From Escherichia coli O127:H6 str. E2348/69 (GTDB taxonomy: Bacteria; Pseudomonadota; Gammaproteobacteria; Enterobacterales; Enterobacteriaceae), in NCBI RefSeq assembly GCF_000026545.1, contig NC_011601.1: a stretch of DNA of 64,000 bases. The stretch is one strand, 5' to 3'. Shown one piece after another: positions 32,324 through 43,519 of the stretch. The position numbers and the translations under genes were made by a program. The notes beneath the pieces are model-generated. The model did not search any database. It was given only the letters and a program-made list of their open reading frames with translations, and was not told where the DNA came from. How positions within the stretch are numbered: position 1 is the first letter of the stretch; each line of letters opens with the position of its first letter.

Positions 32324-33253
32324 CTACTTATTTCCCTGTCCAATCTTACCCGCAACTGCCTCGGTAAGCTTTACTAAGGTTTCAAGTTCATTTTTGTCTA
32401 ATTTTCTTGCTTCAATAATTTCAGTAGTCTGCCCTGATTCTAGTTTTCCAACTCTTGAGCTAAAATTAATTTTATCCAGAAGGTCTATCATATCGATATC
32501 TTTCTGGCTAGCCATTACAAGCTTTATAATGGCATAGCTTTCCTCACGTGAACGTTTTATTGCCTCGTAATAGCGAAACTCATCCATCGTAACCCGATAT
32601 TGCTTCAAAAAGAAAAATGCGATTAACTCCAAGAAAATCAACACGCCAAAATTAGGGAGAAGATACATTACCTTGGTTACCGCATCATCCTTAGCATCAA
32701 TTACATGTGATTGAGAATAGAAGAAACCTAATCCAACTATTGCAAAACAAACACCGACTAATAAATAAAGACTACCGCGAGAATATATGTTTTTCGCAAG
32801 ACCTTCAGAGCTATTAATCAAACCTTTAAGATAAAAATCCAGAGATTCATCTTCATCAGCAGCAGCCCTTTCCTCTTGAGCCTTCTTGAGTAGTTTTATC
32901 TCATTTATAATATCGACAATATTAAACATCGATGATTTGTCGACTGAATCACTCCCTGTAATTCTCATAAACATTCTTTGGATTGGAGACACACCATAGA
33001 TAATGGTGTAAACGATTACAAATGACACTGCGAATATTGACCTGATAAAGCTCGGCAAATGTGTAAGATCTGCTCTCGCACTGGGAAATAAATAATAAAA
33101 GGTTGAGTCTAATATCCCTGTAGCAAAAATTACATTTGCAACTAGAAAGACTGCACCTATCTCAACTAAATTATAAAAACCACGAGTGCGTACCCTAATG
33201 ACTTTGGCCTCGGTCATTCTTGGAGGTGTTTCGATGGTTGGCTCACTCATCAT
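32324..33253 (-). CDS. Hypothetical 4-TM membrane protein (309 aa), phage cargo of unknown function
   Basis: ORF with four hydrophobic segments and a charged, probably coiled-coil C-terminal region; visibly AT-rich; AGGA RBS; ATG overlaps the integrase stop (ATGATGAGTGA). Confidence 0.6.
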   Translation of the reverse strand: MMSEPTIETPPRMTEAKVIRVRTRGFYNLVEIGAVFLVANVIFATGILDSTFYYLFPSARADLTHLPSFIRSIFAVSFVIVYTIIYGVSPIQRMFMRITGSDSVDKSSMFNIVDIINEIKLLKKAQEERAAADEDESLDFYLKGLINSSEGLAKNIYSRGSLYLLVGVCFAIVGLGFFYSQSHVIDAKDDAVTKVMYLLPNFGVLIFLELIAFFFLKQYRVTMDEFRYYEAIKRSREESYAIIKLVMASQKDIDMIDLLDKINFSSRVGKLESGQTTEIIEARKLDKNELETLVKLTEAVAGKIGQGNK

Positions 33254-33602
33254 ATAATCCTGTTAAATTAGAAATAGGGTTAAGAGTTACAGCTTCTTCT
33301 AAATGATCTGGTGCAAAATGAGCGTATCTCATGGTTTCCCTAATGTTAGAATGGCCCAAGATTCGTTGCAGTACTAAAATGTTCCCACCATTCATCATAA
33401 AGTGACTCGCAAATGTATGACGTAACACATTCGTTTTTTGCCCTTCAGCTAACTCTATATCGGTCAGAGCGAGCATTTTCTTGAACTCCTGATAGCAGGG
33501 GTGGAACATTTTTCCCTGTAAAGGAGCCAACTCGTCATATAGCCACCGAGGGATCGGTACTGTACGATTCTTCTTTCCCTTGGTTTGGGAGAAGGCTCTG
33601 CA
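33243..33602 (-). pseudogene. Tyrosine recombinase (phage integrase) C-terminal fragment
   Basis: ...TKGKKNRTVPIPRWLYDELAPLQGKMFHPCYQEF...RHTFASHFMMNGGNILVLQRILGHSNIRETMRYAHFAPDHLEEAV; the N-terminal two-thirds of the gene is absent. Confidence 0.8.
33568..33593. other. Left inversion crossover site (pix/gix/cix-like, 26 bp)
   Basis: ttcttctttcccTTggtttgggagaa; inner half-site is the exact inverted copy of the inner half of the right site at 35454-35479. Confidence 0.6.
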
Positions 33603-34079
33603 TTACCTGTTGGCGTCCCTGTTCCGTGGCCTTCAGCCACACCGCCAACAGGCTGGCTGAAATGCAATGGTGCAGCTTTTTCTGCTGAAGAATACCCGGA
33701 ACTGGCAAAGGCTTATCCGGCAAATAAATTGCCTGATTTACGTGGTGAGTTTATTCGTGGCTGGGATGACGGACGGGGGATTGATACAGGTCGCTCTATT
33801 TTAAGTATTCAGGGGTATGCAACGGAGGATCATGCTCATGGATTACCGTCAAGATCCACGATTGTGACTGATGCAACGATTAATTTCTATTTTGATGAAA
33901 GCTGGGTAAATAGTGGCACTGACATTATCAAAAGAGGAAACACAAACGATGCCGGATTACCAGCACCGGATTATGGAACCTTTAAAACATATAAACAATC
34001 AGTGGCTGGTTTAGGTGCCGCAGCCTCAGAAACGCGTCCGCGTAATATTGCATTTAACTATATCGTGAGGTCAGCCTGA
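33585..34079 (+). CDS. Tail fibre C-terminal variable domain (one invertible-segment orientation)
   Basis: ...GLGEGSALPVGVPVPWPSATPPTGWLKCNGAAFSAEEYPELAKAYP..., tail-collar-like C-terminus; no constant N-terminal tail-fibre part upstream. Confidence 0.7.
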   Translation: MGEGSALPVGVPVPWPSATPPTGWLKCNGAAFSAEEYPELAKAYPANKLPDLRGEFIRGWDDGRGIDTGRSILSIQGYATEDHAHGLPSRSTIVTDATINFYFDESWVNSGTDIIKRGNTNDAGLPAPDYGTFKTYKQSVAGLGAAASETRPRNIAFNYIVRSA

Positions 34080-34681
34080 TGCATAAAGCAATATTAAATA
34101 GTGAGCTTATTGCAACAAAGGCAGGGGATGTTACCGTTTATAACTACGATGGTGAAACACGGGAATATATTTCCACGTCAACTGAATATCTTGCGGTTGG
34201 CGTCGGTATCCCGGCATGTTCTTGTTTAGATGCGCCAGTTACACATAAAGCTGGTTATGCAATCTGCCGTTCTGCAGATTTTAACTCATGGGAATATGTG
34301 CCAGACCATCGCGGTGAAATCATCTATAGCACAGAAACAGGAGAATCGAAAGAAATCACAGCTCCGGGTGATTATCCTGAAAATACAACCACTATCGCCC
34401 CGTTAACGCCATACGATGAATGGGATGGTGAGAAATGGGTAACAGATACTGTGGCACAGCATAGCGCCGCAGTAGGCGCGGCAGAAGCACAGCGTCAGTC
34501 ACTGATTGATAATGCAATGGCTTCCATTAGTCTGATTCAGCTGAAATTGCAGGCCGGACGGAATCTGACGCAGGCAGAAACCGCCCGACTTAACGCTGCG
34601 CTGGATTACATTGACGCGGTGACGGCAACAGATACCAGCACCGCGCCGGATGTCATCTGGCCTGAACTGCCGGAGGCGTAG
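34079..34681 (+). CDS. Tail fibre assembly protein (Tfa)
   Basis: 200-aa ORF with the typical Tfa C-terminus (...RLNAALDYIDAVTATDTSTAPDVIWPELPEA). Confidence 0.8.
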   Translation: MHKAILNSELIATKAGDVTVYNYDGETREYISTSTEYLAVGVGIPACSCLDAPVTHKAGYAICRSADFNSWEYVPDHRGEIIYSTETGESKEITAPGDYPENTTTIAPLTPYDEWDGEKWVTDTVAQHSAAVGAAEAQRQSLIDNAMASISLIQLKLQAGRNLTQAETARLNAALDYIDAVTATDTSTAPDVIWPELPEA

Positions 34682-35093
34682 GCCATTCAATATCTGGCGC
34701 ACCGGAAGTATCGACCAGTTCCAGTGCGTCCAGATAATCCAGCCACAAATTATATTGCGCCAGTTCCTCACCTTTCAGACGACCAATAGCCGCTTTACCA
34801 GGCCATTGTTTACTGTTCATATAATCGTTGGCCTGATTAATCAGTTGCTGCTTTTCAAGTTCGGCTGCAGCAATCTGTTCCTCATGTGTTGGTGGTGGAA
34901 TTTCAGTCCATGCAGGAAAACTATTTTCTCCAGCGATACGGATTTTTCCTTTCGGCGGTAATCCGGAAAACTCAATATACACTTGCTCATCAACTTCAAC
35001 AGCATCATCTGGCCATGAGTCAGCTTGAGTGTAATCCTCTTTCATCTCCAGCGGATAGAAAGAGTTTGTAGTCGCGGAATATATGTAATTCAT
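34653..35093 (-). CDS. Tail fibre assembly protein, alternative (opposite orientation)
   Basis: 146-aa ORF ending ...YNLWLDYLDALELVDTSGAPDIEWPTPPAVQAR, convergent with the other tfa. Confidence 0.8.
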   Translation of the reverse strand: MNYIYSATTNSFYPLEMKEDYTQADSWPDDAVEVDEQVYIEFSGLPPKGKIRIAGENSFPAWTEIPPPTHEEQIAAAELEKQQLINQANDYMNSKQWPGKAAIGRLKGEELAQYNLWLDYLDALELVDTSGAPDIEWPTPPAVQAR

Positions 35094-35114
35094 TTTTCAC
35101 TCCATATAGCTAAA

Positions 35115-35480
35115 TTAACAGCCTAACGCTAAAAATGAAGCGCCGAGGCCAGGAGTACTGGCTCTGGATATAAATTTAACCGGGTCGGGACTAAAACCTG
35201 CACAGGCAATATAACCAACAGCCCCGCTATCTGGTGTGTAGTCTTGTGAGACCAAAACACGCAGACATCTGTTTGGAAATGCAATCGGGAAATGGGTTAC
35301 TACATCCTGTGCAATGCCTGGTGCGCCGATTGAGCCCCACTGAAGAATAAAACCTGATGGAAATTTTTGATATCCAGTACCTGAAACAGAAAGCGTGAAG
35401 CTACCCATATCAGGTATCTGATTCGCCCCTGTCCCTACATTCCTTTTAGCCGCTTCTCCCAAACCAACGTTTAAGAAAAT
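35115..35480 (-). CDS. Alternative tail fibre C-terminal variable domain
   Basis: Reverse ORF 35115..35564 reads ...[17 protein letters not shown]... across the right crossover site; the part inside the invertible segment ends near 35480. Confidence 0.65.
35454..35479. other. Right inversion crossover site (pix/gix/cix-like, 26 bp)
   Basis: ttctcccaaaccAAcgtttaagaaaa, imperfect dyad, immediately upstream of the invertase gene. Confidence 0.65.
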
Positions 35481-35533
35481 GTAGTTTTCCCCCCTAGCTG
35501 GCATCATTTGGGCTTTTGCATGAGGGAAAACAA

Positions 35534-36112
35534 ATGCAGGTTGGCTATGTGCGCGTATCAACAAATGAACAAAATACCGCGCTACAGCGTGACGCGCTGG
35601 AACGGTCGGGATGTGAGCTAATTTTCGAGGATAAAATCAGCGGTAAATCGACAAACAGGCCAAGGTTAAATCGCGCACTCAGGCAACTTAATGCCGGTGA
35701 TACTCTCGTTGTCTGGAAGCTCGACAGGCTCGGGCGTAGCATGCGCCATCTTGTCTCTATGACTGAAGAGCTTCGCCAGCGAGGGGTTAATTTCAGAAGC
35801 CTGACCGACAGTATTGATACCTCAACCCCGATGGGGCGATTTTTCTTTCACATCATGGGCGCTCTTGCAGAAATGGAACGCGAGTTAATCGTCGAACGAA
35901 CCCGCGCCGGGCTGGATGCAGCCCGGGCACAAGGCAGGATCGGAGGTCGTAGGCCGAAGCTGACGCCTGATGAATGGGCTCAGGCTGGCCGGTTGATTGC
36001 GGCCGGAGAATCCCGACAGCGTGTTGCACTGATTTTTGATGTGGGCATATCGACGCTGTATAAAAAATTTCCGGCGACAAATCCCGTTGTGTCAGCCACC
36101 GGCGAACCCTGA
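35534..36112 (+). CDS. Serine-recombinase DNA invertase (Pin/Gin/Hin/Cin family)
   Basis: [38 protein letters not shown]... with catalytic Ser in the VRVST motif and a C-terminal HTH. Confidence 0.9.
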
Positions 36113-36176
36113 CAAATAGCCGCATACAGGCGTAAACCAGACAATATCACTCACCTCAACTAACGGAGTTAAACGG

Positions 36177-37364
36177 ATGAGTGATTATCATCACGGTGTC
36201 GAGGTCGTCGAAATTAACGACGGCACCCGCACAATCTCGACGGTATCAACGGCGGTCGTTGGCATGGTCTGCACAGCCAGTGATGCTGACGCCGGGGCTT
36301 TCCCTCTCAATGAGCCGGTGCTGATTACCAACCCACAAAGCGCCATCGCAAAAGCCGGTACTAAAGGTACCCTGGCAAAATCCTTACAGCTCATCGCTAA
36401 CCAGTCAAAACCGGTTGTCGTTGTTGTGCGTGTCGCGGAGGGTACCGGCGACGGCGAAGAGGCACAGGCGCAAACCATTTCTAACATCATCGGCACCACG
36501 AATGAGAATGGCAAATATACCGGGATGAAAGCGCTGTTAACGGCGAAAGCGGTCACCGGCGTGAAGCCACGTATTCTCGGTGTGCCGGGGCTCGATACTC
36601 AGGAGGTGGCGACCGCGCTTGTCTCCGTGGCTCAGAAGCTGCGCGCTTTCGCCTATGTCAGCGCGTGGGGCTGTAAAACCATTGCTGACGTTATCGCCTA
36701 CCGCGAAAACTTCAGCGCCCGTGAGCTCATGATTATCTGGCCTGACTTCCTCGGGTGGGATACCACGGCCAACGCGACCACAACCAGTTATGCAACAGCG
36801 ATCGCGTTGGGACTGCGCGCAAAAATCGACAATGATACAGGCTGGCATAAAACCCTGTCAAACGTCGGCATCAATGGCGTCACCGGTATCAGTGCGTCGG
36901 TCTTCTGGGATTTGCAGGAATCTGGCACTGATGCCGACCTGCTGAATGAGGCCGGTGTTACGACGCTGATTCGTGCCGATGGTTTCCGCTTCTGGGGTAA
37001 CCGTAATTGCTCCGATGACCCGCTGTTTCAGTTTGAGAACTACACCCGCACCGCACAGGTCATAGCCGACACAATAGCCGAGGGGCATATGTGGGCGAAC
37101 GATAAGCCCATCACCGCGACGTTGATTCGCGACATTATCGACGGCATCAACGCGAAATTCCGCGAGCTGAAAACCGGCGGTTACATCATCGATGCGACGT
37201 GCTGGTTTGACGAAGAGGCCAACAGTAAAGAAACCCTGAAAGCCGGGAAACTGTTTATCGATTATGACTATACGCCGGTGCCGCCACTCGAACACCTGAC
37301 CTTACGCCAGCGCATTACTGATAAATATCTGGCGAATCTTATCTCGTCCGTCAACAGCAAATAA
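36177..37364 (+). CDS. Contractile tail sheath protein (P2 gpFI-like)
   Basis: 395-aa ORF MSDYHHGVEVVEINDGTRTISTVSTAVVGMVCTASDAD..., order and size as P2 FI. Confidence 0.9.
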   Translation: MSDYHHGVEVVEINDGTRTISTVSTAVVGMVCTASDADAGAFPLNEPVLITNPQSAIAKAGTKGTLAKSLQLIANQSKPVVVVVRVAEGTGDGEEAQAQTISNIIGTTNENGKYTGMKALLTAKAVTGVKPRILGVPGLDTQEVATALVSVAQKLRAFAYVSAWGCKTIADVIAYRENFSARELMIIWPDFLGWDTTANATTTSYATAIALGLRAKIDNDTGWHKTLSNVGINGVTGISASVFWDLQESGTDADLLNEAGVTTLIRADGFRFWGNRNCSDDPLFQFENYTRTAQVIADTIAEGHMWANDKPITATLIRDIIDGINAKFRELKTGGYIIDATCWFDEEANSKETLKAGKLFIDYDYTPVPPLEHLTLRQRITDKYLANLISSVNSK

Positions 37365-37376
37365 GGAGCCTGACAA

Positions 37377-37895
37377 ATGGCATTACCGCGCAAGCTCAAA
37401 CTCATGAACCTGTTTATCGATGGGGTGAGTTATCTCGGCGTCGTGCAGTCCGTCACGCTGCCGAAATTAACCCGCAAGCTCGAGAACTATCGCGGCGGCG
37501 GGATGAATGGTTCGGCACCGGTCGACCTCGGCCTCGATGACGATGCGCTGTCGGCTGAAATCTCTCTCGGCGGCTTCCCCGATGACGCTATCTGGTCGTT
37601 ATACGCTGCCACCGGCGCGGCCTCCGTACCGCTACGTTTTGCCGGGTCTTACCAGCGTGATGACACCGGCGAGACCGTGCCGGTTGAGGTTGTTCTCCGT
37701 GGCCGTCAGAAAGAAATCGACCTCGGTGAAGCCAAACAGGGCGAAGACACCGAGTCGAAAATCGCTCTCGCGTGTACCTATTTCAAGCTGACGATGAATG
37801 GCTCGGAACTGGTGGAAATCGACACCGTGAACCTCATCGAAAAAGTGAACGGCACCGACATGCTCGAGGCGCACCGACAAAATATCGGCCTGTAA
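37377..37895 (+). CDS. Tail tube protein (P2 gpFII-like)
   Basis: 172-aa ORF MALPRKLKLMNLFIDGVSYLGVVQSVTLPKL... Confidence 0.9.
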   Translation: MALPRKLKLMNLFIDGVSYLGVVQSVTLPKLTRKLENYRGGGMNGSAPVDLGLDDDALSAEISLGGFPDDAIWSLYAATGAASVPLRFAGSYQRDDTGETVPVEVVLRGRQKEIDLGEAKQGEDTESKIALACTYFKLTMNGSELVEIDTVNLIEKVNGTDMLEAHRQNIGL

Positions 37896-37957
37896 TTTAT
37901 GCCCCGGTCAGCATGGCTGGCCGGGCATCCTGAAACCAGAATTTAACGAGAAATATC

Positions 37958-38230
37958 ATGGATAAAACTAACGAAAATATCGTCACTCTGATTAAACCCA
38001 TTAAGCGCGGTGAGCAGGTTATTACTGACGTCACCCTGTTAAAACCGTGTGCCGGAACCCTTCGCGGTGTCAGCCTGGCATCAGTCGCAAACTCTGACGT
38101 CGATGCGCTGATTAAAGTGCTGCCGCGCATGACCATGCCGTCGCTGACCGAGCAGGAAGCCGCCGCACTGGAGCTGCCCGACCTGCTGTCGTTTGCCGGT
38201 AAGGTGGTCGGTTTTTTGTCACCGAGTTAG
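37958..38230 (+). CDS. Tail assembly chaperone gpE
   Basis: 90-aa ORF between FII and T; contains the slippery heptamer T-TTT-TTG at 38212-38218. Confidence 0.8.
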   Translation: MDKTNENIVTLIKPIKRGEQVITDVTLLKPCAGTLRGVSLASVANSDVDALIKVLPRMTMPSLTEQEAAALELPDLLSFAGKVVGFLSPS

Positions 38231-38391
38231 GCGGCGTAATCTTCCCGCAAAAACTCACGGTCGATGACCTGATGGCTGACATAGCGGTAATTTTCCACTG
38301 GTCGCCATCAGACCTGTATCCCATGAGCCTGACCGAACTCGTCAACTGGCGCGAAAAAGCGCTACAGCGAAGCGGAAACACGAATGAGTAA
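37958..38391 (+). CDS. gpE+E' extended product via programmed -1 frameshift (predicted)
   Basis: -1 frame after TTTTTTG is open to TAA at 38389-38391, overlapping the start of the tape-measure gene. Confidence 0.5.
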
Positions 38392-40813
38392 TAACCTCAA
38401 ACTCGAAGTGCTGCTGAAAGCTGTCGACCAGGCGACCCGACCCTTTAAAGCGATCCAGACGGCGAGCAAATCGCTGTCTGGCGATATCCGCACGACTCAG
38501 CAATCCCTGCGTGATTTGAATGGTCAGGCATCGAAAATCGACGGTTTTCGCAAAACCAGCGCACAACTGGCGGTAACCGGACAGGCACTGGAAAAGGCAA
38601 AACAGGAAGCCGCCGAGCTGGCGGTGCAGTTTAAAAACACGGAACGGCCAACGGCGGCACAGGCCAGAGTGCTGGAATCAGCAAAGCGTTCGGCTGAAGG
38701 GTTACAGGCAAAATATAACAGCCTCACCCAATCGGTGAAGCGGCAACAGACCGAGCTCGGCAAAGCGGGGATTAATACGCGCAATCTGTCGAATGATGAA
38801 AGCCGCCTGAAAAACTCTATCAATGAAACTACCGCACAACTTAACCGCCAGCGTGAAGCACTGGCGCGGGTCAGCGCGCAACAGGCAAAACTCAGCGCAG
38901 TACAAAAACGCTATCAGGCAGGAAAGGCACTGGCTGGAAATGCGGCATCGATGGGCGCTGCCGGGATAGGCATGGCAACGACCGGAGCGCTTGCCGGTGT
39001 TGCACTGATGAAGCCCGGTTATGATTTTGCTCAGAAAAACTCTGAGTTACAGGCCGTTCTCGGTGTCGGTAAAGACTCAGCTGATATGGTGGCGCTCCGC
39101 AAACAGGCGCGCCAGCTCGGTGACAACACCGCCGCGTCGGCTGATGATGCTGCCGGTGCTCAGATTATTATTGCAAAGGCTGGCGGCGATGCTGCGGCTA
39201 TTCAGGCCGCTACCCCCGTAACACTCGATATGGCGCTCGCAAACCGTCGAACGATGGAAGAGAACGCCGGGTTATTGATGGGGATGCGCTCTGCCTTCCA
39301 GCTTTCAAACGATAAGGTCGCCCATATCGGTGATGTTCTGTCGATGACGATGAACAAAACCGCCGCCGACTTTGACGGCCTGAGTGATGCGCTGACTTAT
39401 GCCGCGCCGGTGGCGAAAAATGCCGGGGTCAGCATCGAAGAAACAGCCGCAATGGTCGGCGCACTGCATGACGCCAAAATTACGGGATCGATGGCGGGTA
39501 CGGGGAGCCGTGCCGTATTAAGTCGCCTGCAGGCTCCAACGGGCAAAGCGTATGACGCCATTAAAGAGCTCGGCGTCAAAACGGCTGATGGTAAGGGGAA
39601 CACACGTCCAATATTTACCATCCTGAAAGAAATGCAGCGGAGTTTTGATAAAAACAACCTCGGCACCGGCCAGCGTGCCGAATATATGAAAACCATTTTC
39701 GGTGAAGAGGCCAGCTCGTCGGCTGCGGTACTCATGACCGCTGCCTCGAGCGGGAAATTAGACCAGCTTACCGCTTCCCTTAAAGCATCGGATGGCAAAA
39801 CCGCTGAGCTGGTGAAGGTCATGCAGGATAACCTCGGCGGCGATTTTAAAGAGTTTCAGTCTGCGTATGAAGCGGTAGGAACCGACCTGTTTGACCAGCA
39901 AGAGTCATCATTAAGAAAGCTGGTACAAACGACGACAGGGTATGTATTGAGGCTCGATAGCTGGATCCAAAAGAACAAATCTCTTGCCACCACGCTGGGT
40001 GTCATTACGGCGGCAGCTGTCGGTATTGTGGGGATGATTGGTGCCATTGGCCTTGTATCGTGGCCGGTAATTACTGGCATTAACGCCATCATTTCGGCGG
40101 CTGGTGCGCTTGGTGCGGTCTTTACGACAATCAGTGGCGGGGTCATTGCGGCTATTGGTGCTATTACGTGGCCTGTCGTGGCGGTAGCGGCGGCTGTTGT
40201 CGCTGGCGCGCTGCTTATCCGTAAATACTGGGAGCCTGTCAGCGCATTCTTTGCCGGTGTGGTCGAGGGGCTCATGAGTGCCTTTGCGCCGGTCGGGGAA
40301 ATGTTCGCCCCGCTGGCACCCATTTTCGACGGTCTCGGCGAAAAACTTCGCGGCGTCTGGCAGTGGTTTAAAGACCTGATAGCGCCGGTGAAAGCGACTC
40401 AGGACACGCTCAACAGTTGTCGTGATGTTGGGGTTATGTTCGGTCAGACGCTGGCCGATGCACTGCTGATGCCGCTTAACGCCTTTAACAAGCTGCGAAG
40501 CGGGATTGACTGGGTGCTCGAAAAACTCGGCATTATCAACAAAGAATCCAGCTCACTTGACCAGACTGCGGCGAAAGCCAATGCAGCGACGCAGAACGGT
40601 TACAGCCCGGCAATCAGCGCATACAACAGCTATCAGCCGGTCACGGCACCCGCCGGTAAAACCTACATCGACCAGAGTCGGCCAATCTATCAAATCACCG
40701 TGCCGGGCAATGGTATGCCGGGAGATCGGTTGGGTAATGATTTGCAGGATGCATTAGAAAAGTATGAGCGCGAGAAGCGCGCCAAAGCCCGCGCAAGCAT
40801 GATGCATGACTAA
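38384..40813 (+). CDS. Tail tape measure protein (P2 gpT-like)
   Basis: 809-aa ORF with coiled-coil N-terminus and Gly/Ala-rich hydrophobic central region. Confidence 0.9.
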   Translation: MSNNLKLEVLLKAVDQATRPFKAIQTASKSLSGDIRTTQQSLRDLNGQASKIDGFRKTSAQLAVTGQALEKAKQEAAELAVQFKNTERPTAAQARVLESAKRSAEGLQAKYNSLTQSVKRQQTELGKAGINTRNLSNDESRLKNSINETTAQLNRQREALARVSAQQAKLSAVQKRYQAGKALAGNAASMGAAGIGMATTGALAGVALMKPGYDFAQKNSELQAVLGVGKDSADMVALRKQARQLGDNTAASADDAAGAQIIIAKAGGDAAAIQAATPVTLDMALANRRTMEENAGLLMGMRSAFQLSNDKVAHIGDVLSMTMNKTAADFDGLSDALTYAAPVAKNAGVSIEETAAMVGALHDAKITGSMAGTGSRAVLSRLQAPTGKAYDAIKELGVKTADGKGNTRPIFTILKEMQRSFDKNNLGTGQRAEYMKTIFGEEASSSAAVLMTAASSGKLDQLTASLKASDGKTAELVKVMQDNLGGDFKEFQSAYEAVGTDLFDQQESSLRKLVQTTTGYVLRLDSWIQKNKSLATTLGVITAAAVGIVGMIGAIGLVSWPVITGINAIISAAGALGAVFTTISGGVIAAIGAITWPVVAVAAAVVAGALLIRKYWEPVSAFFAGVVEGLMSAFAPVGEMFAPLAPIFDGLGEKLRGVWQWFKDLIAPVKATQDTLNSCRDVGVMFGQTLADALLMPLNAFNKLRSGIDWVLEKLGIINKESSSLDQTAAKANAATQNGYSPAISAYNSYQPVTAPAGKTYIDQSRPIYQITVPGNGMPGDRLGNDLQDALEKYEREKRAKARASMMHD

Positions 40814-40824
40814 GGAGACTGATT

Positions 40825-41289
40825 ATGATGCTGGCATTAGGTATGTTTGTTTTTATGCGTCAGACGCTGCCCTACCAGAGCATGCAGCGCAGCGCGGATT
40901 ATAGCTGGGCGTCAAACTCTCGCATCGGGAAGCGTGACGCTTTTCAGTATCTCGGCGAGGGGGAAGATAAAATCACCCTGAGCGGTGACCTGTATCCTGA
41001 GCTGACCGGCGGTAAGCTCACGATGCTGGCGCTTTATGCAATGGCTGAACAGGGGCGCGCATGGCCGCTTATCTCTGGCTCAGGCTGGATTTACGGGATG
41101 TTTGTTGTCAGTAATGTCTCGGAGACCGGCACGGTATTTTTTGAGGATGGGACGCCACGAAAAATCAGCTTCACCCTGTCACTGACCCGTGTCGATGAGT
41201 CGCTCGCCGCGGTGTATGGCGATATTGGAAAACAGGCCGAAAGTCTGGTCGGGAAAGCTGGCGATCTGCTGTCGATGGTGGGGGCGTAA
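40825..41289 (+). CDS. Tail protein gpU-like
   Basis: 154-aa ORF MMLALGMFVFMRQTLPYQSMQRSADYSWAS... following T. Confidence 0.85.
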   Translation: MMLALGMFVFMRQTLPYQSMQRSADYSWASNSRIGKRDAFQYLGEGEDKITLSGDLYPELTGGKLTMLALYAMAEQGRAWPLISGSGWIYGMFVVSNVSETGTVFFEDGTPRKISFTLSLTRVDESLAAVYGDIGKQAESLVGKAGDLLSMVGA

Positions 41290-41291
41290 TC

Positions 41292-42464
41292 ATGCTGGAT
41301 ATTATCACCGGCGCGGGTGCCACGCTGACGCCCGACTTTATGCTGACACTGGAAAGCAAAGATATCACCGGCAATATCAGTGACCGGCTGATTAACCTCT
41401 CGATGACGGACAATCGGGGTTTTGAGGCCGACCAGCTCTACATCGAGCTCGACGATACTGACGGTCTGGTCGCATTGCCGATTCGCGGTGCGGTGCTGTC
41501 GCTGTATCTCGGGTGGAAAGGTTTCTCTCTGGTCAGCAAGGGGCGATTTACCGTCGATGAGGTAGAGCACCGGGGGGCGCCGGATACGGTAACCATTCGC
41601 GCCCGGGGTGCGGATTTTCGCGGGACGCTTAATTCCCGTCGTGAGGAGTCATGGCATGACACCACGCTCGGCGCAATCGTCAGCTCGATAGCTGAGCGGA
41701 ACAAGTTAACGGCCAGCGTCACTGATTCTCTTGCGGGGATCCAGATTCCGCATATCGACCAGTCTCAGGAATCCGACGCCGTTTTCCTGACTCGCCTCGC
41801 AGAACGCAACGGCGGTGCGGTCTCAGTGAAAGCGGGTAGATTGCTGATGCTCAAAGCGGGAAGCGGTACCACTGCCAGTGGAAAAGCTATTCCTCAAATT
41901 ACCATCCAGCGCGGTGACGGTGACCGGCATCAGTTTGCCATTGCCGACCGTGGCGCTTACACCGGCGTAACCGCTAAGTGGCTGCACACTAAAGACCCGA
42001 AACCGGCGAAACAAAAGCAGACAGTGAAGCTGAAACGTAAGCCCAAAGAGCAACACCTCCGGGCGCTACAGCACCCGAAAGCAAAACCAGTGAGCAGTAA
42101 AGTCACGGCCAAAAAGCAAAAAGAGCAGGAAGCCCGCGAGGGTGAATACATGGCCGGTGAGGCTGACAACGTTTTCGCGCTGACGACCATTTACGCGACA
42201 AAGGCGCAAGCGATGCGTGCAGCTCAGGCGAAGTGGGATAAATTGCAGCGTGGGGTTGCGGAGTTCTCCATTATGTTAGCGACCGGCCGCGAGGATATTT
42301 ACCCCGAAACGCCGGTCAGGGTCTCAGGCTTTAAGAGCGTTATAGACGAGCAAGCATGGATAATCAGCAGGGTGACCCATAATCTCGGTGGGAATGGCTT
42401 CACAACGGCTGTAGAGCTTGAGGTGATGCTTTCGGATGTAGAATATGACACCGACGAATCTTGA
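41292..42464 (+). CDS. Tail protein gpD-like (late control gene D)
   Basis: 390-aa ORF following U. Confidence 0.85.
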   Translation: MLDIITGAGATLTPDFMLTLESKDITGNISDRLINLSMTDNRGFEADQLYIELDDTDGLVALPIRGAVLSLYLGWKGFSLVSKGRFTVDEVEHRGAPDTVTIRARGADFRGTLNSRREESWHDTTLGAIVSSIAERNKLTASVTDSLAGIQIPHIDQSQESDAVFLTRLAERNGGAVSVKAGRLLMLKAGSGTTASGKAIPQITIQRGDGDRHQFAIADRGAYTGVTAKWLHTKDPKPAKQKQTVKLKRKPKEQHLRALQHPKAKPVSSKVTAKKQKEQEAREGEYMAGEADNVFALTTIYATKAQAMRAAQAKWDKLQRGVAEFSIMLATGREDIYPETPVRVSGFKSVIDEQAWIISRVTHNLGGNGFTTAVELEVMLSDVEYDTDES

Positions 42465-42540
42465 TTATACAAACAAAACTTGCAAATGTAAGATTCAAGT
42501 TTATTATCCCCCTCAAGTCAGCAAGGAGAGGGAAGAAATT

Positions 42541-42759
42541 ATGATGCACTGTCCGCTATGTCAGGATGCAGCACACGCACGATCAAGCCGGTACCTGAGC
42601 ACTGAAACGAAAGAGCGCTACCACCAGTGCCAGAACATCAACTGCGGTTGCACTTTCGTCACCCACGAGAGCCTTGCTCGTTTTATCGTGAAGCCAGGAG
42701 AAATTGAACCCGCCCCACCCCACCCGTCTAAATACCAACAACATCAGCTCTGGCTTTAA
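42541..42759 (+). CDS. ogr: Late-gene transcription activator Ogr (zinc finger)
   Basis: MMHCPLCQDAAHARSSRYLSTETKERYHQCQNINCGCTF... with a Cys4 arrangement; ATG at 42541 preceded by aaggagag. Confidence 0.9.
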   Translation: MMHCPLCQDAAHARSSRYLSTETKERYHQCQNINCGCTFVTHESLARFIVKPGEIEPAPPHPSKYQQHQLWL

Positions 42760-42796
42760 ATCAAAGGCCTGCTTTGCAGGCCTTCTTGTATCAAAC

Positions 42797-43519
42797 TTAG
42801 ATTGGTAATGAAAAAGCTATCGCCTTGCAGATATGTTGCTTTGTTAACGCAGGATGTGTTGAAGCAAAAAGCGATAAAAAGCTTTTAGCTTCAACCGAAT
42901 CATCATTAAGCGAAATATTATCTTTGATGAATGGATGAAGTGCGATTCCAGCGCTCATAGATAACGGCACATAGTTGATGAATATATCTTCTTTTGTGAG
43001 ACCTAGCTGGTTTGCTTGTGCTTCAAATGAATTAGCATCTAAATAATCACGTATACGTTCTTTGGCCTCTGGTCGGAGTCTCGATTCTTGACGCGGCAGA
43101 GAAAGCATCTTATCAATATCTCCCCATGAGATAGGAACCTCAAAATAGCCACCACCTTCTTCCTCTAGAGGTGCCGGGAAATTCACATAAAAATAGTTTT
43201 TTTGCTGTGTAGGGTCGTTCATGGACTGACGATGATAGTTATAAATACTTCTAATACGGTTGGCCTTGTTATGATGCCGAGCATTTCGAATAACAAGCAT
43301 CATTAATAATTCAGGTTTCAAATACCAGTCAGGCTCTAATCCATTGCTTTGCATGTTGTCATACAAATTATGAAAAGCATTAAGTTGTGTATTCAGGCCC
43401 GATTCTAAATTGCCAATTGCTTCAGCACGATCAATAGCCAACAAACGCTGTAGTGACCAGTTAGACTCTAATAAAACCCGAAAGGCCTGTGCAAGATCTT
43501 CAAAAGAGTGGGAAAGCAT
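42797..43519 (-). CDS. Hypothetical soluble protein (240 aa), phage cargo; possible HEPN-like Rx4H motif
   Basis: AT-rich ORF with AAGGA RBS between ogr and attR; contains ...LVIRNARHHNKANR... (R-x4-H pattern). Confidence 0.6.
   Translation of the reverse strand: MLSHSFEDLAQAFRVLLESNWSLQRLLAIDRAEAIGNLESGLNTQLNAFHNLYDNMQSNGLEPDWYLKPELLMMLVIRNARHHNKANRIRSIYNYHRQSMNDPTQQKNYFYVNFPAPLEEEGGGYFEVPISWGDIDKMLSLPRQESRLRPEAKERIRDYLDANSFEAQANQLGLTKEDIFINYVPLSMSAGIALHPFIKDNISLNDDSVEAKSFLSLFASTHPALTKQHICKAIAFSLPI

What the first reader, a model, noticed from the sequence alone, without database searches (positions are those of the whole stretch)
37958..38391. Predicted programmed -1 frameshift site in the tail chaperone gene (E/E')
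The heptamer T-TTT-TTG at 38212-38218 lies near the end of the E ORF. The -1 frame is open from there to a TAA at 38389-38391, overlapping the tape-measure start, matching the conserved E/E' (G/GT-like) arrangement of P2-type tail operons.
Basis: partly seen in the sequence, partly recalled or inferred. Interest (0 to 1): 0.3.

Follow-up and report, generated by a model that had tools for sequence, protein, structure and literature searches.

The report
P2-type tail chaperone frameshift site
This is the well-known programmed -1 ribosomal frameshift site (T-TTT-TTG) of the P2-phage tail chaperone gene E/E', intact in a deleted prophage remnant of E. coli E2348/69: a correct call of an ordinary, already described feature.

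Summary
E runs 37958-38230. T_TTT_TTG lies at 38212-38218 in X_XXY_YYZ phase with E. The -1 frame runs open from there to TAA 38389-38391, overlapping the tape-measure ATG at 38384.

The heptamer alone is common (14 copies on the + strand). The context is what makes it non-random:
- The -1 frame is open only from 38203, so the shift must fall in a 28-nt window, and this is the only in-phase slippery heptamer there.
- The fused 144-aa product hits Pfam Phage_TAC_7 and Phage_P2_GpE (6e-22). It is 79% identical to P2 gpE+E', whose annotated frameshift site aligns base for base.
- In 93 of 93 related loci, E' lies in the -1 frame with an in-phase T-rich heptamer.
- Synonymous positions that build the T run never vary, and the codon periodicity of variation switches frame at the heptamer.

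No conserved downstream RNA structure exists, as published for P2.

The window is E. coli E2348/69. The element is a deletion remnant that keeps only tail-fibre, FI-FII-E-T-U-D and ogr genes. RefSeq does not annotate the frameshift.

Verdict: interpretation supported, already known, low interest. One small open point is a conserved Shine-Dalgarno-like AAGGTGG 4 nt upstream of the heptamer.

The parts
37958..38230 (+). Gene E: 90-aa tail assembly chaperone, the 0-frame product
   Evidence: ORF, translation. Pfam PF10109 Phage_TAC_7, E 2.5e-8, 34 bits against a cut-off of 25. phrog_103 'tail protein', 1e-39. RefSeq WP_000361834.1 'phage tail assembly protein'.
38212..38218 (+). Slippery heptamer T_TTT_TTG, in X_XXY_YYZ phase with E
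   Evidence: Aligned with the annotated P2 frameshift site. An in-phase T-rich heptamer is present in 93 of 93 related loci; 84 of them are TTTTTTG. GGT 30/30, TTT 30/30 and TTG 28/29 at synonymous positions.
38203..38230 (+). Shift window: the only stretch where frame 0 (E) and the open -1 frame overlap
   Evidence: The -1 frame is closed by TAA 38200-38202 and E stops at TAG 38228-38230.
38218..38391 (+). E' segment: 57 codons read in the -1 frame plus TAA. With E residues 1-87 it gives the 144-aa E+E' fusion
   Evidence: Pfam PF06528 Phage_P2_GpE, 6.3e-22. phrog_1756 covers fusion residues 85-144, including the linker. Third-position variation follows the -1 frame from the heptamer onward.
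38384..40813 (+). Gene T (tape measure, 809 aa). Its ATG overlaps the E' stop (ATGAGTAA)
   Evidence: Pfam PF10145 PhageMin_Tail, 1.7e-43.
37377..37895 (+). Gene FII (tail tube), the upstream neighbour that fixes the synteny
   Evidence: Pfam PF04985 Phage_tube, 1.4e-60.
38201..38207 (+). Shine-Dalgarno-like AAGGTGG, 4 nt upstream of the heptamer. Candidate modulator; function not shown
   Evidence: It is the strongest anti-SD match in the E gene in 23 of 40 non-redundant relatives. Codon choice is constrained: AAG 25/26, and GTG 28/30, the second-lowest third-position entropy of 27 conserved four-fold sites.

Best explanation
This is the E/E+E' programmed -1 ribosomal frameshift cassette of a P2-like (Peduoviridae) contractile-tail operon. 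Most ribosomes translating E read GGT TTT TTG TCA CCG AGT TAG and release the 90-aa chaperone E. A minority slip back one base with tRNA-Phe and tRNA-Leu on T_TTT_TTG. They then continue in the -1 frame from G38218 for 57 codons and release a 144-aa E+E' fusion that ends 8 nt inside the tape-measure gene. By analogy with P2 gpE/gpE+E' and lambda gpG/gpGT, the shared N-terminal part coats the tape-measure protein, and the E' extension recruits tube subunits. The slip rate sets a fixed ratio of the two products, and neither ends up in the virion. Shown here: the anatomy, the homology of both parts, the orthology of the site with P2's annotated site, and purifying selection on the heptamer and on the -1 frame downstream of it. 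Inferred: that slippage actually happens at this locus, its rate, the exact junction residue, and the chaperone roles. In E. coli E2348/69 the cassette lies in a recent deletion remnant that cannot build tails alone. The signal is intact but probably idle unless the operon is switched on (for example by Ogr) and complemented by another phage.
For: Coordinates and phase. Pfam TAC_7 plus Phage_P2_GpE on the fused product. PHROG tail families, one of which spans the junction. P2 record AF063097 annotates E, E+E' (joined CDS, '-1 frameshift; essential tail protein') and the frameshift site; the window aligns to it at 80.6% nt identity with an identical GGTAAGGTGGTCGGTTTTTTGTC block. In 93 of 93 loci (80 IMG/VR, 12 GenBank phages from Escherichia to Burkholderia, Ralstonia, Pseudomonas, Acidovorax, Zymomonas and Vibrio, plus the window) E' is in the -1 frame, the two frames overlap, and an in-phase heptamer is present. 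In tblastn against 50,697 phage records, 402 of 417 matching records cover at least 80% of the fusion, and 48 of the 50 listed rows (all that match both parts) do so as two pieces. Per-site entropy shows third-position periodicity in frame 0 up to the heptamer and in frame -1 after it. The Gly codon supplying the first T is GGT in 30 of 30 sequences, the lowest entropy of 27 conserved four-fold sites. Phe is TTT in 30 of 30. Leu is TTG in 28 of 29, although other Leu codons in E are mostly CTG. The conserved 'Met' that PGAP uses as a separate E' start is ATA, ATC, GCC or TGG in 13 of 92 relatives, so E' has no start of its own there. The AlphaFold2 model of the fusion is confident as one chain (pLDDT 88, pTM 0.77). 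Literature: P2 frameshifts at TTTTTTG to give 91-aa E and 142-aa E+E', with no downstream hairpin (PMC3091744). Efficiency in P2 and relatives is 2-3 fold above lambda's, whose G:GT molar ratio is about 30:1 (PMC5009743).
Against: There is no expression or protein data for this locus. U_UUU_UUG is not among the efficient heptamers measured in E. coli (PMC4066793), and no conserved 3' stimulatory structure was found, so the rate cannot be predicted from the sequence. The element lacks baseplate, head and lysis genes, so the product has no complete tail to assemble in this strain. RefSeq annotates E and a separate 39-aa 'GpE family' gene, with no frameshift. A run of six T could in principle also give the same frame change by RNA polymerase slippage.
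Confidence: 0.9

Rival explanations
1. The same fusion protein arises by transcriptional slippage. RNA polymerase adds one extra U at the T6 run, so a fraction of mRNAs carries U7 and reads E+E' in a single frame, giving the junction ...GFF-VTE...
For: The site is a homopolymeric T6 run. The consensus scan flags a hairpin plus T-run at 38195-38212, a terminator-like arrangement. From my own recollection, not checked here: hairpins 5' adjacent to short slippery runs have been reported to stimulate polymerase slippage.
Against: Six T is short for efficient bacterial polymerase slippage (general knowledge). The 5' hairpin is weak, -3 to -8 kcal/mol, and is not kept in relatives, several of which have energies of 0 or above. 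The scan found no more terminator-like sites than in shuffles: 2 against 2.6 expected. One relative (Xuanwuvirus P88, L089) has A_AAT_TTT, a proper tandem-slippage heptamer with no run longer than four. In all 93 loci the motif keeps X_XXY_YYZ phase. The run is exactly six T in nearly all loci and is not extended, as selection for polymerase slippage would favour.
Confidence: 0.06
2. E' is a separate small gene, as RefSeq has it: a 39-aa GpE-family protein initiated at ATG 38272, with no frameshift.
For: PGAP annotates WP_000763326.1 at 38272-38391. The Pfam GpE model starts exactly at that Met (fusion residue 106).
Against: No Shine-Dalgarno sequence precedes ATG 38272 (ACGGTCGATGACCTG). The codon is a non-start codon (ATA, ATC, GCC or TGG) in 13 of 92 relatives. 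The 18 codons between the heptamer and that Met are free of stops in all 93 loci and vary mainly at -1-frame third positions, so they are translated. phrog_1756 aligns from fusion residue 85. The P2 record describes E+E' as an essential joined product.
Confidence: 0.03
3. The cassette is a decaying relic. The sequence resembles the P2 site but has lost function in this remnant.
For: The element is a remnant of about 11 kb with a truncated integrase and a truncated tail-fibre gene, and no baseplate, head or lysis genes. E ends three codons earlier than in every other relative examined apart from the FORC 064 prophage (stop 16 nt rather than 25 nt or more after the heptamer).
Against: All of FI, FII, E, T, U, D and ogr are intact ORFs with full-length Pfam matches. 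The 6,583-nt operon differs at only 10 positions from the same operon in an intact prophage at the same site in strain FORC 064. That prophage has the identical E protein, including the early TAG, and the identical heptamer. The early stop is therefore a feature of a complete phage, not decay. This rival concerns present use in the strain, not what the site is.
Confidence: 0.1

Closest known systems
Bacteriophage P2 gpE / gpE+E' (-1 frameshift in the FETUD tail operon; Christie et al. 2002, as cited in PMC3091744 and PMC5009743; GenBank AF063097)
   Same: Same gene order, the same TTTTTTG heptamer at the aligned position, and the same -1 direction. The E' stop overlaps the T start in both. Identity is 80.6% at the nucleotide level and 79% at the protein level. 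Neither has a downstream hairpin.
   Different: E is 90 aa here against 91 aa in P2: two extra N-terminal residues, and a stop three codons earlier (TCG to TAG at 38228). The fusion is 144 aa against 142 aa. The locus lies in a deletion remnant rather than in a viable phage.
Lambda gpG / gpGT and the conserved tail-assembly-chaperone frameshift of long-tailed phages (Levin 1993; Xu, Hendrix and Duda 2004, 2013, 2014, as summarised in PMC5009743)
   Same: Two overlapping ORFs between the major tail (tube) gene and the tape-measure gene. A -1 slip near the end of the first ORF gives a minor fusion product. The presumed roles are chaperones that are absent from virions.
   Different: The Pfam family differs: PF10109/PF06528 here, with no hit to any other chaperone family. 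The heptamer differs: T_TTT_TTG here against G_GGA_AAG in lambda. The tail is contractile, not flexible. The reported efficiency in P2-like phages is 2-3 fold higher.
E. coli dnaX and IS-element -1 frameshift sites with a 5' Shine-Dalgarno stimulator and a 3' hairpin
   Same: A tandem-slippage heptamer read by bacterial ribosomes, with an SD-like sequence upstream.
   Different: The SD-like AAGGTGG lies 4 nt from the heptamer, not 9-14 nt (PMC5009743). No 3' hairpin is present. [quoted passage not shown]

Membership tests
P2-type E/E+E' frameshift cassette (Peduoviridae) | Located between the tail tube gene (FII) and the tape-measure gene (T) in an FI-FII-E-T-U-D operon | tested here: met
   ORFs. 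Pfam hits for sheath, tube, tape measure, GpU, GPD and Ogr/Delta. RefSeq annotation.
P2-type E/E+E' frameshift cassette (Peduoviridae) | The upstream ORF is a member of the E/gp41/gp14 chaperone family | tested here: met
   PF10109 Phage_TAC_7, 34.3 bits against a cut-off of 25. E part 79% identical to the P2 E part by tblastn.
P2-type E/E+E' frameshift cassette (Peduoviridae) | The -1 frame downstream encodes the GpE (E') domain and has no independent start | tested here: met
   PF06528, 77 bits against a cut-off of 23. The linker is under -1-frame coding constraint. The 'start' codon is absent in 13 of 92 relatives.
P2-type E/E+E' frameshift cassette (Peduoviridae) | An in-phase slippery heptamer (TTTTTTG) inside the frame-overlap window, orthologous to the P2 site | tested here: met
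   Conserved in 93 of 93 loci. Synonymous constraint.
P2-type E/E+E' frameshift cassette (Peduoviridae) | Two proteins are actually made from one start, and both are needed for tail assembly | not testable with these tools
   This needs protein detection and genetics. It is recorded only for P2 itself, by the record's annotation and by the literature cited.
Lambda G/GT-type tail assembly chaperone pair (functional class) | Overlapping ORF pair directly upstream of the tape-measure gene, joined by a programmed frameshift | tested here: met
Lambda G/GT-type tail assembly chaperone pair (functional class) | Structural or sequence relationship to solved tail assembly chaperones | tested here: inconclusive
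dnaX/IS-type SD-stimulated -1 frameshift | Internal Shine-Dalgarno sequence 9-14 nt 5' of the shift site | tested here: not met
   The SD-like AAGGTGG ends 4 nt before the heptamer. Spacing rule from PMC5009743.
dnaX/IS-type SD-stimulated -1 frameshift | Stable 3' hairpin or pseudoknot 5-9 nt after the heptamer | tested here: not met
   The 82 nt downstream fold no better than shuffles (z = -0.08). The 30-sequence consensus fold is -10 kcal/mol with a covariation term of -0.38 and one compensatory pair.

The most novel reading that the evidence does not exclude
The conserved Shine-Dalgarno-like AAGGTGG 4 nt upstream of T_TTT_TTG may be a stimulator or pause element of the P2-family frameshift. 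Pairing with the anti-SD of the translating ribosome would occur at initiation-like spacing, 5 nt to the P-site codon UUU. That could explain how an intrinsically weak heptamer with no 3' structure reaches an efficiency reported as 2-3 fold above lambda's. It would be an SD-dependent -1 stimulator outside the canonical 9-14 nt spacing. My evidence is limited. The motif is the best anti-SD match in the gene in 23 of 40 non-redundant relatives, including five of ten distant ones. Codon choice at AAG and GTG is unusually fixed. Amino-acid conservation (K/E-V-V) confounds both observations, and I could not read the primary P2 paper to see whether this was already tested.
Probability: 0.2. Interest if true: 0.4.

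Novelty: already known. Interest (0 to 1): 0.1.

Why it matters
The practical value lies mainly in annotation. RefSeq (PGAP) splits this locus into 'phage tail assembly protein' and a free-standing 39-aa 'GpE family' gene in every E. coli genome inspected. The joined 144-aa E+E' product is therefore missing from the protein set. The biology is textbook: a fixed-ratio pair of tail chaperones made by ribosomal slippage. The comparative data add a clear picture of how selection holds a slippery heptamer in place through synonymous sites. They also raise one small testable question about the upstream SD-like motif.

Tried and rejected
1. Downstream stimulatory RNA structure. Single-sequence folds and a 30-sequence consensus fold show nothing beyond chance. 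The 3-bp CCG/CGG mini-hairpin seen in relatives is broken in the window by the TCG to TAG change.
2. A 5' hairpin plus T-run (the terminator-like hit) as a driver of transcriptional slippage. The hairpin is weak and is not conserved.
3. Independent initiation of E' at ATG 38272. Rejected on the grounds given under the rival explanations.
5. NCBIfam gave no hit for the fusion.
6. The primary paper (Christie et al. 2002, PMC135442) is not held. Statements about P2 therefore rest on the GenBank annotation and on secondary sources.
7. A literature search for a description of this E2348/69 remnant returned nothing useful.

Full report
**Observation.** Reading the sequence and listing ORFs confirms each coordinate in the finding.
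- E is ATG 37958 to TAG 38228-38230 (90 aa).
- TTTTTTG lies at 38212-38218, and 38213 is a first codon position of E. The motif therefore reads T_TTT_TTG in the X_XXY_YYZ phase needed for tandem -1 slippage.
- From G38218 the -1 frame is open for 57 codons to TAA 38389-38391.
- The 809-aa tape-measure ORF starts at ATG 38384, giving the overlap ATGAGTAA.

The -1 frame is closed just upstream by TAA 38200-38202. Frame 0 and the open -1 frame therefore overlap only over 38203-38230 (28 nt), and T_TTT_TTG is the only in-phase slippery heptamer there. The heptamer alone means little. The window holds 14 TTTTTTG and 287 X_XXY_YYZ motifs on the + strand, so about 0.04 in-phase motifs are expected in 28 nt.

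**What it is.** The flanking genes give full-length Pfam matches:

| Window coordinates | Pfam assignment |
|---|---|
| 36177-37364 | tail sheath |
| 37377-37895 | tail tube FII |
| 38384-40813 | tape measure |
| 40825-41289 | GpU |
| 41292-42464 | GPD |
| 42445-42759 (longest ORF; RefSeq start at 42543) | Ogr/Delta |

E alone hits Phage_TAC_7 (PF10109). The conceptual fusion of E residues 1-87 with the -1 frame hits both PF10109 and Phage_P2_GpE (PF06528, E 6.3e-22). It also hits PHROG tail families, and phrog_1756 spans the junction and linker, residues 85-144.

blastn against phage genomes finds 177 records. P2 itself (AF063097 / NC_001895) matches at 80.6% identity, and its record annotates E, a joined E+E' CDS ('-1 frameshift; essential tail protein') and a 'site of -1 translational frameshift'. 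In the pairwise alignment, the 23-nt block GGTAAGGTGGTCGGTTTTTTGTC is identical in the two sequences, and the heptamers coincide. The fusion is 79% identical to P2 gpE+E'.

**Conservation.** I collected 80 IMG/VR loci and 12 annotated phage loci, from P2 to Burkholderia, Ralstonia, Pseudomonas, Acidovorax, Zymomonas and Vibrio phages.
- In all 93 loci, counting the window, the E' homology lies in the -1 frame relative to E, the two frames overlap, and an in-phase slippery heptamer sits in the overlap.
- The heptamer is TTTTTTG in 84 loci, TTTTTTC in 4, TTTTTTA in 3, TTTTTTT in 1 and AAATTTT in 1.
- In tblastn against all phage records, 402 of 417 matching records cover at least 80% of the fusion. 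Of the 50 rows listed, 48 match as two pieces; the other two match only one of the two parts.
- Across 30 non-redundant enterobacterial sequences, per-site entropy peaks at frame-0 third positions up to the heptamer and at -1-frame third positions after it.
- The Gly codon that supplies the first T is GGT in 30 of 30, the lowest third-position entropy among 27 conserved four-fold sites.
- Phe is TTT in 30 of 30. Leu is TTG in 28 of 29, although the other Leu codons of E are mostly CTG.

Selection is therefore acting on the nucleotides of the heptamer itself and on the -1 reading frame downstream.

**Mechanism and rivals.** The best-supported mechanism is tandem -1 ribosomal slippage. The roles of E and E+E' are inferred from P2 and from the lambda G/GT paradigm.

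No 3' stimulator exists. The 82 nt downstream fold no better than shuffles (z = -0.08). The consensus fold of 30 relatives is weak, with essentially no covariation. This matches what is reported for P2 and for Burkholderia P2-like phages (PMC3091744). U_UUU_UUG is not among the efficient heptamers in E. coli (PMC4066793), yet the efficiency in P2-like phages is said to be 2-3 fold above lambda's (PMC5009743).

- *Independent initiation at ATG 38272*, which is how RefSeq annotates E', is unlikely. No SD precedes the ATG. The codon is ATA, ATC, GCC or TGG in 13 of 92 relatives. The linker upstream of it is under coding constraint.
- *Transcriptional slippage at the T6 run* cannot be excluded by computation, but it is disfavoured. 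One relative uses A_AAT_TTT, which has no long run. The run is not extended in the family. The terminator-like 5' hairpin flagged is weak and not conserved.

**An unexplained detail.** AAGGTGG (38201-38207) lies 4 nt upstream of the heptamer and is a strong anti-SD match. It is the best such site in the E gene in 23 of 40 non-redundant relatives, including five of the ten distant ones. Its codons are unusually fixed: AAG 25/26, whereas other Lys codons favour AAA, and GTG 28/30. Its spacing is shorter than the 9-14 nt known to stimulate -1 shifts, and amino-acid conservation confounds the signal. I record it as a hypothesis, not a finding.

**Context.** The window is 100% identical to the E. 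coli E2348/69 (O127:H6) chromosome. Between the yfiB side and rplS, the element retains only:
- a 308-aa hypothetical gene and an integrase fragment;
- the 3' part of the tail-fibre gene;
- a tail-fibre-assembly cassette with a Din-type invertase;
- FI-FII-E-T-U-D, ogr, and a 240-aa unknown gene.

It is a deletion remnant. Strain FORC 064 carries the intact prophage at the same site, with terminase, lysis and baseplate genes. The two 6,583-nt tail operons differ at 10 positions. The E protein is identical in both, including its early TAG, and so is the heptamer. The cassette is thus that of a complete phage, and the deletion is recent. In E2348/69 it cannot by itself contribute to a tail.

**Structure.** AlphaFold2 on a 30-sequence alignment of fusions gives a confident single-chain model (pLDDT 88.4, pTM 0.77). 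No solved structure matches by sequence or by fold. Membership of the chaperone class therefore rests on Pfam and synteny, not on fold.

**Verdict.** The feature is the already described P2 E/E+E' frameshift site. Interest is low. The practical point is that genome annotation omits the joined product.

Noticed in passing
window 32324-43519: The P2-like element is a deletion remnant of about 11 kb. It has no head, baseplate, lysis or replication genes. An intact copy of the same prophage sits at the same site next to rplS in E. coli FORC 064, and its tail operon differs at 10 of 6,583 nt.
   Followed up: partly
window 33580-33594 and 35453-35467; invertase 35516-36112: Perfect 15-bp inverted repeats (TTGGTTTGGGAGAAG) flank a 1.9-kb tail-fibre / fibre-assembly segment next to a Din-family (resolvase-type) invertase gene: an invertible host-range switch. 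Homology to the intact prophage begins about two bases before the left repeat (about 33578), with an integrase fragment abutting it. The large deletion may therefore have been made by the invertase at this crossover site.
   Followed up: partly
window 42797-43519 (- strand): A 240-aa ORF between ogr and rplS has no Pfam, PHROG or PADLOC match. It has 188 unnamed homologues of about 240 aa; among those that carry an organism name are Citrobacter, Enterobacter, Morganella, Vibrio, Shewanella, Halomonas, Paenibacillus and Rufibacter. It is a conserved prophage-end cargo gene of unknown function.
   Followed up: partly
window 38201-38207: A Shine-Dalgarno-like AAGGTGG lies 4 nt upstream of the slippery heptamer. 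It is conserved in position and shows constrained codon choice across relatives, but its spacing is outside the canonical range for -1 stimulators.
   Followed up: partly
window 38228-38230: E ends at TAG three codons earlier than in P2 and in the 91 other phage and IMG/VR loci examined (TCG to TAG). The same base change makes Phe to Leu in E'. The intact FORC 064 prophage shares it, so it is not decay.
   Followed up: yes
window 38272-38391: RefSeq/PGAP annotates E' as a free-standing 39-aa 'GpE family phage tail protein', with no frameshift. This holds in E2348/69 and in every other E. coli genome listed. The 144-aa joined product is missing from the annotation.
   Followed up: yes
window 38026, 38083, 38240, 38257: Four of the ten substitutions that separate the remnant's 6.6-kb tail operon from the intact FORC 064 copy fall in the 434-nt E/E' stretch. 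Two are synonymous in E. Two change linker residues of the fusion (I95T and T101S). The numbers are too small to interpret.
   Followed up: no
window 37901-37928: An imperfect GC-rich inverted repeat (TGCCCCGGTCAGC ATG GCTGGCCGGGCA) lies in the 62-nt gap between FII and E. It could be an mRNA hairpin. It was not tested for conservation (seen).
   Followed up: no
window 32324-33250 (- strand): A 308-aa hypothetical protein lies next to the integrase fragment at the left end of the remnant. It has no Pfam match and only a sub-threshold PADLOC Cas5a hit (E 0.0015).
   Followed up: no
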